A DNA stretch of 32,000 nucleotides, from contig JBAQRV010000001.1 in the NCBI GenBank assembly GCA_049296095.1, positions 180,001-212,000 of the forward strand, read 5' to 3'. This stretch comes from Candidatus Saccharimonadota bacterium. Its GTDB lineage: Bacteria; Patescibacteriota; Saccharimonadia; Saccharimonadales; Saccharimonadaceae. The position numbers were made by a program, and so were the translations under genes. The notes under the pieces are model-generated. The model saw only the letters and a program-made list of their open reading frames with translations. It ran no database searches and was not told the origin of the DNA. Positions 3,465 through 25,344 of the stretch are shown here, piece after piece (position 1 is the stretch's first letter; every line of letters starts with the position of its first letter).

Positions 3465-3550
3465 TGGTGCTGGGAGTAGGATTCGAACCTACGAAGGCTG
3501 AGCCGCCAGTTTTACAGACTGGTGTGTTTGAACCACTTCACTATCCCAGC
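3465..3550 (-). tRNA. tRNA-Tyr (anticodon GTA), long variable arm, CCA encoded
   Basis: Reverse complement begins GCTGGGA and ends TCCCAGCACCA (7-bp acceptor stem). Anticodon loop is CT-GTA-AA. T-loop GGTTCGAATCC. 86 nt, type II architecture as expected for bacterial tRNA-Tyr. Confidence 0.9.
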
Positions 3551-3565
3551 AAGCATTAACACTAG

Positions 3566-3943
3566 TCATTTTACCTCATATTTCATGAATTTGCTAGCTT
3601 CTACGCTGATTGAATTGCGGTTTTCTATCTCTTTCCATGGAAAAAGAAATTGCTTTCCATCTGCAACGAAGACATAAAGAAGGTCAAATGCATCCACGCT
3701 ATACTTCTTGGCCGTATAATAGGATTGATTACCTCCCATAGTACGTAGAGCTGCCATGTGCTTGTTTGTGCCCTTATAGTATCCTGCATATTTGACTTGA
3801 ACCCGAAACAAGCAATTATCGATTTCAGCAATGAGATCATACTTTCGCTTGTCACCGATAGGTAGGCAGACTTCATACCCGTTAGTTATGAAGTAAGATA
3901 TTGCATGCGCAACAGCCAAATCACCCTTCTCTTTTGGTTTCAT
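3566..3943 (-). CDS. small PD-(D/E)xK endonuclease resembling the I-Ssp6803I type of group I intron homing endonuclease
   Basis: Pattern KGDLAVAHAISYFITNGYEVCLPIGDKRKYDLIAEIDNCLFRVQVK matches the D...(D/E)xK core (YDLI ... VQVK) of the small PD-(D/E)xK family that includes I-Ssp6803I. This is recalled family resemblance, not a database search. I prefer the M6 start (3943) because the upstream codons lie inside a perfect 14-bp hairpin. Confidence 0.6.
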   Translation of the reverse strand: MKPKEKGDLAVAHAISYFITNGYEVCLPIGDKRKYDLIAEIDNCLFRVQVKYAGYYKGTNKHMAALRTMGGNQSYYTAKKYSVDAFDLLYVFVADGKQFLFPWKEIENRNSISVEASKFMKYEVK

Positions 3944-3945
3944 AA

Positions 3946-3978
3946 AATAATAAAGCAACCAAAAGTTGCTTTATTATT
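3946..3978 (-). terminator. perfect 14-bp hairpin downstream of tRNA-Thr(TGT)
   Basis: AATAATAAAGCAAC-caaaa-GTTGCTTTATTATT. On the minus strand it is followed by a T-rich run immediately before the endonuclease ATG. Confidence 0.5.
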
Positions 3979-3994
3979 AAATATTGAATTCATT

Positions 3995-4071
3995 TGGAGC
4001 CGCCTCAGGGATTCGAACCCAGGACCCTCGCTTTACAAAAGCGATGCTCTAACCAGCTGAGCTAAGGCGGC
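3995..4071 (-). tRNA. tRNA-Thr (anticodon TGT), CCA encoded
   Basis: Reverse complement is GCCGCCTTAGCTCAGCTGGTTAGAGCATCGCTTTTGTAAAGCGAGGGTCCTGGGTTCGAATCCCTGAGGCGGCTCCA. Acceptor GCCGCCT/AGGCGGC and anticodon loop TT-TGT-AA. One T-T mismatch in the T stem. Confidence 0.85.
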
Positions 4072-4163: not shown

Positions 4164-4748
4164 ATGATTACTAAAGACGTACTGACAAACTTATATATTG
4201 AACGTGGGTTTTCGATGAAACGGATAGCTATAGAGCTTAATTGCTCTGTCCATAGAGTTGAATACTGGATGCGAAAGTATATGCTTAAACGAAGAAGTCG
4301 TAGTGAAGCGCTGTATCATCATTATCACCCTGATGGACACCCTTTTAGTAAACATAGAATACGTACAATAGAAGATGCTACGCTGTATGGCCTAGGTATC
4401 GGCCTATACTGGGGTGAGGGTACGAAAAGAAATAGGCACTCCGTAAGGCTGGGAAATAGTGACCCTGCACTTATTCGTACATTTATGCAGTTTTTAGAGA
4501 CTTGTTTCGGAGTCAACATAAGTGAGCTACGATTTGGTCTCCAACTTTTTACAGATATCGAACCGATAAAGGCACTGCTCTATTGGAGAGAAGCGTTGAA
4601 TATCAGTGAGGATCAATTCTATAAGCCGCACATAACAGTTAGCGGCTCTTTAGGAACATACCGACAGAAATCACTATATGGTGTTATTACCCTTTACTAC
4701 AACAATTCCCGTCTTCGTGATATACTTGTCAGCGAGTTGCCACAATAG
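4164..4748 (+). CDS. HTH + single-motif LAGLIDADG-type homing-endonuclease-like protein
   Basis: LYGLGIGLYWGEGTK resembles a LAGLIDADG motif with an acidic residue. The N-terminal FSMKRIAIELNCSVHRVEYWMRKY resembles an HTH. I prefer the start at 4164 because a TACAAT -10 box (4152-4157) sits 6 nt upstream, the leaderless pattern seen elsewhere in the window. Confidence 0.6.
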   Translation: MITKDVLTNLYIERGFSMKRIAIELNCSVHRVEYWMRKYMLKRRSRSEALYHHYHPDGHPFSKHRIRTIEDATLYGLGIGLYWGEGTKRNRHSVRLGNSDPALIRTFMQFLETCFGVNISELRFGLQLFTDIEPIKALLYWREALNISEDQFYKPHITVSGSLGTYRQKSLYGVITLYYNNSRLRDILVSELPQ

Positions 4749-4793: not shown

Positions 4794-5074
4794 GCCGCGA
4801 TAGCTCAGTTGGTAGAGCGCATCCATGGTGGGTCGCCTGACCCCTGCCTGCTTACCGAGAAATTGGTAAGTATCACCCGAATAACGGTTAATATCCCACG
4901 CAGGGACAAGACCGTGGCGACTAGAGTTATAGCCGCCCGAACGACTGACAAGGGAAGCTACGTCATCCAGATGATATGCTTAATATACAGTCTAGCCCTC
5001 TTATACTGCACAGAAATAAGAAGAGGTGTAAGCGAAGGATGAGGTCTCGGGTTCAATTCCCGATCGCGGCTCCA
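4794..5074 (+). tRNA. tRNA-Thr (anticodon GGT) interrupted by a 205-nt intron after anticodon position 36
   Basis: 5' exon 4794-4829: GCCGCGA TA GCTC AGTTGGTA GAGC G CATCC ATGGT. 3' exon 5035-5074: AA GGATG AGGTC TCGGG TTCAATT CCCGA TCGCGGC T CCA. Joining the exons gives a canonical 76-nt cloverleaf with loop AT-GGT-AA. Confidence 0.8.
4830..5034 (+). ncRNA. putative group I (self-splicing) intron, ORF-less
   Basis: The 5' exon ends in U and the intron ends in G. Exon GGU (4827-4829) can pair with GCC (4846-4848), giving the U.G wobble at the splice site. A P2-like hairpin forms from CTTACC/GGTAAG (4851-4856/4865-4870). A P4-P5-like element has A-rich joiners (ACGGT TAATAT CCC acgca GGG ACAAG ACCGT). 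GACTG/CAGTC is a candidate P7. Its size matches small tRNA group I introns. Confidence 0.7.
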
Positions 5075-5135: not shown

Positions 5136-5342
5136 ATGCCTAAAAAGAATACTAAGCGAAAACTCGTCGGACTTGTCAGCGAACTGACTGGTCACCGTAC
5201 GTACTACACGACCAAGAACACTCAGAACACCACTGAGAAGATTAGTCTAAAGAAGTACGACCCAATTGCACGTACCCACGCGACTTACACCGAGACAAAG
5301 AAGAACCTCGGACGTAACGAAGTCAAGCAACGCAAGAACTAG
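5136..5342 (+). CDS. rpmG: 50S ribosomal protein L33 (Cys-less form, short C-terminal extension)
   Basis: KLVGLVSELTGHRTYYTTKNTQNTTEKISLKKYDPIARTHATYTETK aligns with the L33 consensus (GTGHFYTTTKN...L.KFDP..R.H..YKE.K). An extended -10 TGcTATAAT (5116-5124) lies upstream. Confidence 0.85.
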   Translation: MPKKNTKRKLVGLVSELTGHRTYYTTKNTQNTTEKISLKKYDPIARTHATYTETKKNLGRNEVKQRKN

Positions 5343-11758: not shown

Positions 11759-11833
11759 AGGGGCATAGTACAACGGTTAGTACGTGGGTCTCCAAAACCT
11801 GAGATCGTGGTTCGATTCCACGTGCCCCTGCCA
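11759..11833 (+). tRNA. tRNA-Trp (anticodon CCA), CCA encoded, intact
   Basis: AGGGGCA TA GTAC AACGGTTA GTAC G TGGGT CTCCAAA ACCTG AGAT CGTGG TTCGATT CCACG TGCCCCT G CCA. The anticodon stem contains two G.U wobble pairs. Confidence 0.92.
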
Positions 11834-25184: not shown

Positions 25185-25283
25185 TCGAAAACTACTGACG
25201 AGTTTTGGAGACCTAAACACTTAACTATCCTAACTTCACTTTCCGCCATACGATTATCAGATAAAGAATGAGTGTCCATTATA

Positions 25284-25344
25284 GGTTAGTACATAGGTCT
25301 CCAAAACCTAGGATCGTGGTTCGATTCCACGTGCCCCTGCCAAG
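25284..25344 (+). pseudogene. 5'-truncated tRNA-Trp copy (right-hand direct repeat of the island)
   Basis: Matches tRNA-Trp from the D-loop (GGTTAGTAC) to CCAAG, 57/61 identical. There is no AGGGGCA 5' acceptor strand or 5' D-stem upstream, so no cloverleaf can form. Confidence 0.8.

What the first reader, a model, noticed from the sequence alone, without database searches (positions are those of the whole stretch)
4794..5074. Group-I-like 205-nt intron in the anticodon loop of tRNA-Thr(GGT)
Seen directly: a perfect tRNA cloverleaf is recovered only if 4830-5034 is removed. The insertion lies between positions 36 and 37. The 5' exon ends in U and the insert ends in G. The exon's GGU can pair with GCC at 4846-4848 to give the U.G wobble at the 5' splice site. 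The insert folds into an ordered set of helices compatible with P1-P2-P4/P5-P6-P7-P8-P9. These include A-rich strands flanking a P5-like hairpin and a GACTG/CAGTC pairing that could be P7. Established knowledge: bacterial tRNA group I introns are known in tRNA-Leu(UAA), tRNA-fMet, tRNA-Ile(CAU) and tRNA-Arg(CCU), always following a U in the anticodon loop, and are about this size. I do not recall one in tRNA-Thr(GGU), nor in this kind of small-genome lineage, so both host gene and lineage could be new. The intron has no ORF; the 77-aa tracked ORF crosses the exon boundary and looks spurious.
Basis: partly seen in the sequence, partly recalled or inferred. Interest (0 to 1): 0.62.

Follow-up and report, generated by a model that had tools for sequence, protein, structure and literature searches.

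The report
Group I intron splitting tRNA-Thr(GGU)
The only threonine tRNA(GGU) gene of this tiny Saccharibacteria-type genome is split right after its anticodon by a compact 205-base group I intron of the self-splicing type; it is real, but it belongs to an already catalogued class that is common in these bacteria.

Summary
Confirmed. Window 4794-5074 is tRNA-Thr(GGU) split between nt 36 and 37 by a 205-nt ORF-less insert (4830-5034). Only this placement reproduces the uninterrupted allele found in 33 of 39 species of the same genus.

The insert is a group I intron. It has a U.G pair at the 5' splice site, a terminal omega-G, and helices P1-P9 plus P9.0. All of these, including the P3/P7 pseudoknot, are backed by compensatory changes in relatives. 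The L2 tetraloop also covaries with a receptor in P8.

The genome is 99.8% complete. It has no other tRNA(GGU), although ACY codons make up 54% of Thr codons, and no EndA or RtcB. Splicing is therefore required and is probably autocatalytic.

Rfam RF00028 does not detect the intron.

It is not new. The site is the 'Thr.5Ug' class of Williams 2020. At least 120 Patescibacteria genomes carry the same core, and this scan has reported the family on other DNA dozens of times.

One addition: a LAGLIDADG-like HTH gene (4164-4748) lies just upstream in 6 of 7 intron-bearing species of the genus. It is absent from all 30 intron-less loci I fetched. This suggests a composite mobile unit.

The parts
4794..4829 (+). 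5' exon of tRNA-Thr(GGU), nt 1-36, ending in anticodon GGU (U36 = splice-site U-1)
   Evidence: identical to nt 1-36 of the uninterrupted alleles of species in the same genus
4830..5034 (+). 205-nt ORF-less group I intron
   Evidence: single copy in the genome
5035..5074 (+). 3' exon of tRNA-Thr(GGU), nt 37-76 including the encoded CCA
4827..4848 (+). P1 hairpin. Exon GGU (4827-4829) pairs with guide GCC (4846-4848), giving U4829.G4846 at the 5' splice site. The extension is 4830-4834 with 4839-4843.
   Evidence: U.G in 99/100 homologues; 5 of 8 pairs have changes on both sides
4849..4872 (+). P2 (4849-4858 with 4863-4872), capped by the GAAA tetraloop L2 (4859-4862)
   Evidence: all 10 pairs covary; the L2 type covaries with the P8 receptor type
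4876..4878 (+). P3 5' strand CCC, pairing with GGG 4952-4954 (pseudoknot)
   Evidence: all 3 pairs show compensatory changes in relatives not chosen by my search pattern (CUC/GAG, UUC/GAA, CCG/CGG, CCA/UGG)
4884..4915 (+). P4-P5 domain. P4 is ACGGUU 4884-4889 with GACCGU 4910-4915. J4/5 is AAUAU 4890-4894. P5 is 4895-4897 with 4903-4905. J5/4 is ACAA 4906-4909.
   Evidence: RNAalifold; P5 3/3 pairs covary; P4 4/6 pairs covary
4916..4937 (+). P6 hairpin (GGCG 4916-4919 with CGCC 4934-4937), with a loop of variable length
   Evidence: 3/4 pairs covary and 4/4
4938..4947 (+). J6/7 CGAAC (4938-4942) and the P7 5' strand GACUG (4943-4947)
   Evidence: invariant in 100 homologues; variants GACUU/AAGUC, GGAUG/CAUUC and GACUA/UAGUC are compensated
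4952..4954 (+). P3 3' strand GGG, following J7/3 ACAA (4948-4951)
4956..4980 (+). P8 (4956-4958 with 4978-4980), with an internal loop like the 11-nt receptor (UACG 4959-4962 / UAU 4975-4977); inferred docking site of L2 GAAA
   Evidence: L2/P8 association
4982..4992 (+). J8/7 AAUAUA (4982-4987) and the P7 3' strand CAGUC (4988-4992)
   Evidence: aligns to the Rfam consensus AAGAUAUAGUC in homologue L064
4995..5034 (+). P9.0 (GC 4995-4996 with GC 5032-5033) enclosing P9 (4997-5002 with 5021-5026), followed by the terminal omega-G 5034
   Evidence: both P9.0 pairs change on both sides in 38-44 of 100 sequences; P9 6/6 pairs covary
4164..4748 (+). Upstream gene: an N-terminal HTH plus a LAGLIDADG-like core (GLGIGLYWGEG). 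It is a candidate free-standing homing endonuclease (or maturase) linked to the intron-bearing allele.
   Evidence: family membership inconclusive

Best explanation
Window 4830-5034 is a genuine, compact, ORF-less group I intron in the only tRNA-Thr(GGU) gene of a 710-kb Saccharibacteria (Patescibacteria/CPR) genome.

Inferred mechanism: the pre-tRNA is transcribed with the intron. The intron folds into a P1-P9 core. In it, exon GGU pairs with guide GCC, the P3/P7 pseudoknot forms the core, and the L2 GAAA loop docks into the P8 receptor. An external guanosine attacks after U36. The terminal G5034, positioned by P9.0, then takes the G site, and the exons are ligated to give the anticodon loop AUGGUAA.

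Shown here: the anatomy, its conservation, the covariation, and the need for the tRNA. Inferred: catalysis itself, and that it needs no protein.

The intron is optional within the genus. It usually travels with a LAGLIDADG-like gene that abuts the tRNA, and that gene probably mobilises it.
For: (1) Exact exon join. 33 of 39 species of the same genus have the uninterrupted allele, with junction CATGGTAAGGATG.

(2) Homologous introns at the same site occur in 6 species of the genus, in at least 120 species-level genomes, nearly all Patescibacteria, and in 8 of 150 evenly sampled genomes of the phylum. About 110 of 118 read as ..GGU|...G|AA.

(3) An independent MAFFT plus RNAalifold run gives P1, P2, P4, P5, P6, P7, P8 and P9.

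(4) Covariation on 100 sequences: 92.5% of cells paired against 78% in shuffles and 29-45% when slid, and 31 pairs changed on both sides, including P9.0. On 22 sequences not chosen by my pattern, P3 (3/3 pairs), P4 (4/6) and P7 (2/5) also show compensatory changes.

(5) Tertiary contact. L2 GAAA never occurs with a CC:GG P8 (0 of 56). L2 GUAA or GCAA occurs with one in 30 of 31.

(6) RF00028 aligns homologue L064 over P1, P2, P3, P8, J8/7-P7' and P9 at 22.8 bits, E = 0.001. My model R1 picks up canonical tRNA-Thr(UGU) group I introns at E about 1e-5.

(7) In a phage contig the same core splits a ribonucleotide reductase at GTNP|CGE. Removing it by the U-1/omega-G rule restores the frame.

(8) The tRNA is needed. 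There is no other GGU tRNA in a 99.8%-complete single-contig genome. ACU plus ACC make up 54% of Thr codons.

(9) The genome has no EndA or RtcB.
Against: RF00028 gives no hit on the window, even at E<=10, and hits only 1 of 20 homologues, below its threshold.

P3 is only 3 bp. J6/7 (CGAAC) differs from the GUAGA of all the Williams seeds.

Autonomy of splicing is untested.
Confidence: 0.9

Rival explanations
1. The intron has a group I fold but is not autonomous. With its 3-bp P3, it needs a protein helper. One candidate is the adjacent LAGLIDADG-like protein acting as a maturase rather than as, or as well as, a homing endonuclease.
For: The core is very compact. The upstream gene accompanies the intron in 6 of 7 intron-bearing species of the genus and in none of the 30 intron-less loci I fetched. 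From my own knowledge, LAGLIDADG proteins are known group I maturases.
Against: One intron-bearing species (G006/L005) lacks the gene anywhere in its genome. About half of 99 CPR loci with the intron have no homologue nearby. G020 keeps the gene next to an intron-less tRNA. The phage and metagenome copies have no such neighbour.
Confidence: 0.15
2. The gene is a tRNA pseudogene disrupted by a dead insertion. Thr ACY codons would then be read by tRNA-Thr(UGU).
For: Default tRNA finders and Rfam do not call the gene. tRNA-Thr(UGU) and tRNA-Thr(CGU) are present.
Against: The exons are intact and match the functional alleles of related species. The insert is under strong selection for structure. 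The same arrangement persists across a phylum. ACC is the commonest Thr codon.
Confidence: 0.03
3. The insert is removed by proteins, either as an archaeal-type bulge-helix-bulge intron or through RNase P/Z cuts followed by a ligase.
For: This scan has reported protein-processed tRNA-shaped inserts in phage tRNAs.
Against: The genome has no EndA or RtcB, and the control genomes were positive. The position is 36/37, not 37/38. The insert has a group I core, not a BHB or tRNA-like fold.
Confidence: 0.02

Closest known systems
'Thr.5Ug' class of bacterial tRNA group I introns (Williams 2020, bioRxiv 10.1101/2020.01.27.920355; seed Rba53.Thr.5Ug)
   Same: Same host tRNA, same site (after GGU, anticodon-loop position 5 = 36/37), U-1 and omega-G, and P2 with a GAAA loop.
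   Different: The seed has the classical core (GUAGAGACCA-GA-CGGGCGG, 6-bp P3, P6 GCC/GGU). The window has CGAAC-GACUG-ACAA-GGG and a 3-bp P3. A sequence profile of this family barely touches the seed (E = 0.17). The preprint's table is an image, so I could not see whether its counts include this compact lineage.
Azoarcus sp. BH72 tRNA-Ile(CAU) and Agrobacterium tRNA-Arg(CCU) introns (subgroup IC3; Aol6.Ile2.5Ug and Rur1.Arg.5Ug in Williams' alignment)
   Same: Same position in the anticodon loop (36/37) and about the same size. No ORF. P2 with a GNRA loop and a receptor in P8. P7 is GACUG/CAGUC, as in the Arg intron. P9.0 lies before omega-G.
   Different: P3 is shorter and J6/7 is different. 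I saw no clear L9 tetraloop-P5 receptor pair. The intron is not detected by RF00028.
Free-standing homing endonuclease next to an ORF-less group I intron ('collaborative homing'; recalled from my own knowledge as Bonocora & Shub 2009, T7-like phages)
   Same: The intron has no ORF, and an endonuclease-like gene sits immediately beside the interrupted gene. The two co-occur across lineages.
   Different: Here the host is a bacterial tRNA gene. The protein's nuclease activity and its target are untested, and its LAGLIDADG membership is not established.

Membership tests
Group I intron | 5' splice site follows a U that forms a U.G wobble pair in P1 | tested here: met
   U4829.G4846; U.G in 99 of 100 homologues; the P1 extension covaries
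Group I intron | Terminal omega-G, with P9.0 pairing next to it | tested here: met
   G5034; about 110 of 118 homologues end in G before AA; both P9.0 pairs covary (38 and 44 of 100 sequences changed on both sides)
Group I intron | Conserved core: P4-P6 stack and the P3-P8/P7 domain, with the P3/P7 pseudoknot | tested here: met
   RNAalifold; covariation in every helix, including P3 (3/3 pairs, not part of the model) and P7
Group I intron | Conserved junctions J8/7 and J4/5 and the R/S-type sequence (GACUN ... AAGAUANAGUC) | tested here: met
   AAGAUA-CAGUC aligns to the RF00028 consensus AAGAUAUAGUC; J4/5 and J5/4 are A-rich
Group I intron | Match to Rfam RF00028 at its gathering score | tested here: not met
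   No hit on the window at E<=10. One of 20 homologues scores 22.8 bits against a gathering score of 50. Williams 2020 notes that none of the Rfam seeds was bacterial. I read this as a limit of the model's sensitivity, not as a structural failure.
Group I intron | Guanosine-dependent self-splicing | not testable with these tools
Indirect support: the tRNA is needed, and there is no EndA or RtcB.
Subgroup IC3 (classical bacterial tRNA introns) | L2 GNRA loop docking into a P8 receptor | tested here: met
   GAAA pairs with an 11-nt-like receptor, and GUAA/GCAA with CC:GG, in 30 of 31 against 0 of 56. Related sequences are not independent, so this is a pattern and not a statistic.
Subgroup IC3 (classical bacterial tRNA introns) | Core consensus G(U/C)AGAGACNN - GA - 6-7-bp P3, as in all the Williams seeds I compared | tested here: not met
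   The window has CGAAC-GACUG-ACAA and a 3-bp P3. nhmmer against 8 seeds gives at best E = 0.01, over P2-P4 only.
'Thr.5Ug' class (Williams 2020) | Intron in tRNA-Thr at anticodon-loop position 5, with U-1 and omega-G | tested here: met
Archaeal/eukaryal protein-spliced (BHB) tRNA intron | Splicing endonuclease and ligase present; usual site 37/38 | tested here: not met
   PF01974 and PF01139 are absent from the complete genome, with positive controls; the site is 36/37
LAGLIDADG homing endonuclease (upstream gene 4164-4748) | LAGLIDADG motif with an acidic residue, alpha-beta-beta-alpha-beta-beta-alpha core, and a database match | tested here: inconclusive
   The block LYWGEG contains an invariant G-E-G. 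The AF2 model (pLDDT 88.6) has a matching order of helices and strands. However, there is no Pfam LAGLIDADG hit, no PDB sequence hit, and only weak Foldseek hits to an intein endonuclease (E = 0.05, TM 0.3).

The most novel reading that the evidence does not exclude
The ORF-less intron and the LAGLIDADG-like/HTH gene that abuts the tRNA's 5' end form one composite mobile unit. The protein would cut intron-less tRNA-Thr(GGU) alleles in the anticodon stem-loop. The intron would protect the carrier allele; in G020 a rewritten anticodon stem would do the same job. Under this reading the pair has spread repeatedly within and between CPR lineages.
Probability: 0.4. Interest if true: 0.55.

Novelty: new member of a known kind. 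Interest (0 to 1): 0.3.

Why it matters
There are three practical consequences.

(1) Annotation. Default ARAGORN and Rfam miss this gene, so the genome appears to lack tRNA-Thr(GGU). The same blind spot affects at least 120 Patescibacteria genomes. The model built here (R1) scores true members at 154-192 bits.

(2) RNA biology. This is a very compact group I core (about 175-266 nt, 3-bp P3) with clean covariation, including a tetraloop-receptor switch. That makes it a good minimal ribozyme to study.

(3) Evolution. The intron is patchy within one genus and is linked to a tRNA-abutting endonuclease-like gene. That makes a specific, cheap-to-test case for collaborative homing at a tRNA gene.

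None of this changes the main point: the intron class and its site were already catalogued.

Tried and rejected
- **Rfam RF00028.** It gave nothing on the window at gathering score or at E<=10, and nothing in the whole genome. I judged this a sensitivity problem, after the sub-threshold alignment of homologue L064 and the covariation results.
- **Island hypothesis from earlier scan notes** (intron-bearing tRNA as cargo of an island that split the host copy). No second tRNA-Thr(GGU) or half-gene exists in this genome. Rejected for this window.
- **ORF in the intron.** Rejected.
- **Protein-dependent splicing.** No EndA or RtcB.
- **Sequence-profile link to Williams' seeds.** nhmmer gave only marginal local matches.
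- **Upstream protein.** Pfam gave only a weak HTH_23 hit. A PDB profile search gave nothing. Foldseek against PDB gave nothing at E<=0.001. Its family therefore remains open.
- **Literature.** Searching for the phrase 'divergent group I introns', quoted in earlier scan notes, found no paper. I could not verify the Castelle 2018 attribution and do not rely on it.
- **Vertical versus horizontal history.** The tree is from one flanking gene with 4 intron-bearing tips, and the identity matrix is only suggestive.

Full report
**Observation**

The sequence reads as follows. The 5' exon at 4794-4829 is GCCGCGA UA GCUC AGUUGGUA GAGC G CAUCC AU GGU. The insert is 205 nt, at 4830-5034. The 3' exon at 5035-5074 is AA GGAUG AGGUC UCGGG UUCAAUU CCCGA UCGCGGC U CCA. 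Joined, the two exons form a perfect cloverleaf with anticodon GGU.

Default ARAGORN and the Rfam tRNA model do not call the gene. ARAGORN with intron search calls it at 4794-5074 with a 205-nt intron, but as Arg(GCG), because in this single sequence the cut can slide by two bases.

Relatives settle the position. The conceptual exon join matches an uninterrupted tRNA over all 76 nt at 86-99% identity in 33 of the 39 other species of the genus. The junction CATGGTAAGGATG is present in 29 of the 30 loci I fetched. Only the cut GGU|...G|AA reproduces it.

**The organism**

The window lies in a single-contig genome of 710,317 bp that is 99.83% complete. One member of the same genus (G010, locus L008) is the same contig as a public record titled Candidatus Saccharibacteria bacterium (L068). 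The lineage is therefore Saccharibacteria within Patescibacteria/CPR.

**What the insert is**

The insert is single-copy in the genome. Homologues that are 75-79% identical sit at the same site of the same tRNA in 6 of 39 species of the genus.

Nearly all of them are named as Patescibacteria groups: Saccharibacteria, Paceibacterota/Parcubacteria, Yanofsky-, Komeili-, Moran-, Wolfe-, Uhr-, Peregrini- and Peribacteria, among others. In every case that ARAGORN could resolve, the pattern lies in a split tRNA. About 110 of 118 of these read as ..(A/U)UGGU | intron ..G | AA, that is tRNA-Thr(GGU) at 36/37 with U-1 and omega-G.

In an even sample of 150 genomes of the phylum, my covariance model found 8 strong members (154-191 bits), all at this site.

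**Structure**

MAFFT plus RNAalifold on 108 unique sequences, run without any input from me, predicts P1, P2, P4, P5, P6, P7, P8 and P9. I added P3 and P9.0 by hand.

On a MAFFT alignment of 100 sequences (A1), my structure has 92.5% of cells paired. Shuffles give 78.2% and slid partners give 29-45%. There are 31 pairs with changes on both sides. The changes fall as follows:
- P2: 10 of 10 pairs
- P5: 3 of 3 pairs
- P6: 3 of 4 pairs
- P8: 2 of 3 pairs
- P9: 6 of 6 pairs
- P9.0, the two pairs next to omega-G: GC/GC, AC/GU, AU/AU and GU/AC
- The splice-site U.G pair is kept in 99 of 100 sequences.

P3, P4 and P7 do not vary in that set. For P7 and P3' this is partly because my search pattern fixed them. 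I therefore collected relatives that were not chosen by that pattern. These were the 8 introns from the phylum sample, two phage copies, seven copies on a metagenome contig found with a P4-anchored pattern, and four canonical tRNA-Thr(UGU)-type introns. In this second set:
- P3 shows CUC/GAG, UUC/GAA, CCG/CGG and CCA/UGG.
- P7 shows GACUU/AAGUC, GGAUG/CAUUC and GACUA/UAGUC.
- P4 covaries in 4 of 6 pairs.

P3 is not part of the model to which these sequences were aligned, so its pair counts are not biased by the fit.

A tertiary contact is also visible. When L2 is GAAA, P8 carries an asymmetric loop like the 11-nt receptor (GCUAAG/GCUACG ... UAUGC); none of those 56 sequences has a CC:GG helix. 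When L2 is GUAA or GCAA, P8 carries CC:GG in 30 of 31. From my own knowledge, this matches the known receptor preferences of GNRA loops and the L2-P8 contact of the Azoarcus-type introns. Related sequences are not independent, so I present this as a pattern and not as a test statistic.

**Links to canonical group I introns**

RF00028 finds nothing on the window, and only one of 20 homologues scores at all. That one homologue (L064, 22.8 bits, E = 0.001 when searched alone) is aligned over P1 with the splice site, P2-GAAA, P3, P8, J8/7-P7' (AAGAUA.AGUCUA) and P9.

In the other direction, model R1 picks up classical group I introns of tRNA-Thr(UGU) (GUAGAGACUA ... AAGAUAUAGUCC) at E of about 1e-5 to 1e-6.

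In a phage contig (L161), a 218-nt copy of the same core interrupts a ribonucleotide reductase gene at ..GMGTNP|CGEVVLRPRQFCNLS... Removing it after the U and after the terminal G restores the frame, and the joined product hits Ribonuc_red_lgC above Pfam's cut-off. This is independent evidence that this RNA family is spliced out.

**Is it needed, and how is it removed?**

ARAGORN finds 39 tRNAs in the genome. For threonine these are only UGU and CGU, plus this split gene. In 445 long ORFs covering 75% of the genome, ACC is the commonest Thr codon, and ACU plus ACC make up 54% of Thr codons.

The genome has no tRNA-splicing endonuclease domain (PF01974) and no RtcB (PF01139), while both searches were positive in control genomes.

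I infer that the intron is spliced in vivo, most probably autocatalytically.

**No ORF**

Only 3 of 118 homologous introns have any stop-free frame, and their lengths are spread over all three residues modulo 3. The 77-aa ORF at 4809-5042 is therefore spurious.

**Surroundings and mobility**

The neighbourhood reads as follows:

| Feature | Coordinates | Strand |
|---|---|---|
| tRNA-Tyr | 3465-3550 | - |
| PD-(D/E)XK endonuclease gene | 3566-3958 | - |
| tRNA-Thr(UGU) | 3995-4071 | - |
| 194-aa gene | 4164-4748 | + |
| Split tRNA-Thr(GGU) | 4794-5074 | + |
| rpmG (L33) | 5136-5342 | + |

The 194-aa protein has an N-terminal HTH and an invariant ..LYWGEG.. block that resembles a LAGLIDADG motif. 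Its AlphaFold model (pLDDT 88.6) has a compatible alpha/beta order. However, Pfam, the PDB sequence search and Foldseek give no secure match, so its family is unproven.

The distribution of this gene is informative:
- Within the genus, it abuts the tRNA in 5 of 6 other intron-bearing species and in the window, and is absent from all 30 intron-less loci I fetched.
- Genome-wide, it occurs in 6 of 7 intron-bearing genomes. The only other clear case is G020.
- In G020 it abuts an intron-less tRNA-Thr(GGU) whose anticodon stem is rewritten, from CAUCC/GGAUG to CGAAC/GUUCG.
- Across CPR, 44 intron-bearing loci have a homologue ending within about 125 nt upstream of the tRNA on the same strand. About half of the 99 loci with enough flank have none.

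On a tree of the neighbouring gene, the four intron-bearing tips are scattered. Four changes are needed, and well-supported branches force at least three. The window's nearest relatives are intron-less.

The window's intron is 66-71% identical to those of the other six intron-bearing species, which are 76-82% identical to each other, whatever their place on that tree.

Together this suggests repeated gain or loss of an intron-plus-gene unit. It does not prove it. The G020 allele fits the idea that the protein targets the anticodon arm and that carriers must disrupt the target.

**Comparison with what is known**

Williams (2020, bioRxiv 10.1101/2020.01.27.920355) extended the four classical intron-bearing bacterial tRNAs to 21 classes. 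His seed alignment contains Rba53.Thr.5Ug, an intron after GGU of a tRNA-Thr. The host gene and the site are therefore catalogued. Lui et al. 2021 (PMC8172020) also remark that some tRNAs in their circularized genomes, most of them CPR, carry group I introns.

The window's intron differs from that seed and from all the seeds I compared. Those share G(U/C)AGAGACNN-GA and a P3 of 5-7 bp. This family has CGAAC-GACUG-ACAA and a 3-bp P3, and sequence profiles barely connect the two. It is best described as a compact, divergent lineage of the same kind.

This scan has already reported the family on other genomes dozens of times. Those notes led me to the Williams preprint, which I checked myself. 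They also quote a Castelle 2018 attribution, which I could not verify.

**Verdict**

The novelty claim is not. Interest is modest. The most useful leftovers are the annotation blind spot and the testable link to the upstream endonuclease-like gene.

Noticed in passing
window 11759-11833 and 25268-25342: The 'second tRNA-Trp(CCA)' shares only its 3' ~60 nt (plus CCAAG) with the intact tRNA-Trp, and its 5' acceptor strand differs. It looks like an att-type direct repeat bounding a ~13.5-kb integrated island.
   Followed up: partly
window 3566-3958 (-): A PD-(D/E)XK endonuclease gene (PDDEXK_5, E = 9e-20) is wedged between tRNA-Tyr and tRNA-Thr(UGU). It is a second selfish-looking nuclease gene in this tRNA cluster.
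   Followed up: no
L162 (metagenome contig Ga0180732_1008899) 2144-4148: There are seven copies of the same intron family (63-106 bits with model R1) within 2 kb, separated by only 14-142 nt. Some of the pieces between copies are repeated. This is either a gene crowded with group I introns or a tandem array. It remains unexplained.
   Followed up: partly
L161 (IMGVR_UViG_3300029931_000014), reverse strand, intron 705-922: In this phage contig, a 218-nt copy of the intron core splits a ribonucleotide reductase gene at GTNP|CGE. The same ORF also carries an intein-like LAGLIDADG_3 domain upstream.
   Followed up: yes
L175 (G020:C33) 798-873 on the reverse complement: This species of the same genus has the LAGLIDADG-like gene overlapping the 5' end of an intron-less tRNA-Thr(GGU). 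That tRNA's anticodon stem is fully rewritten by compensatory changes (CGAAC/GUUCG instead of CAUCC/GGAUG). It may be a target-site escape.
   Followed up: partly
L172, L174, L165:1792-1998, L173: Other Patescibacteria carry classical-core group I introns (GUAGAGACUA...AAGAUAUAGUCC) in tRNA-Thr(UGU) at the CU|GU site. One of them lies about 90 nt from an intron-bearing tRNA-Thr(GGU).
   Followed up: partly
genome C1:668897-669044 and whole genome: ARAGORN with intron search also proposes a tRNA-Cys with a 55-nt intron at position 38. It finds no tmRNA in this 99.8%-complete genome. I checked neither.
   Followed up: no
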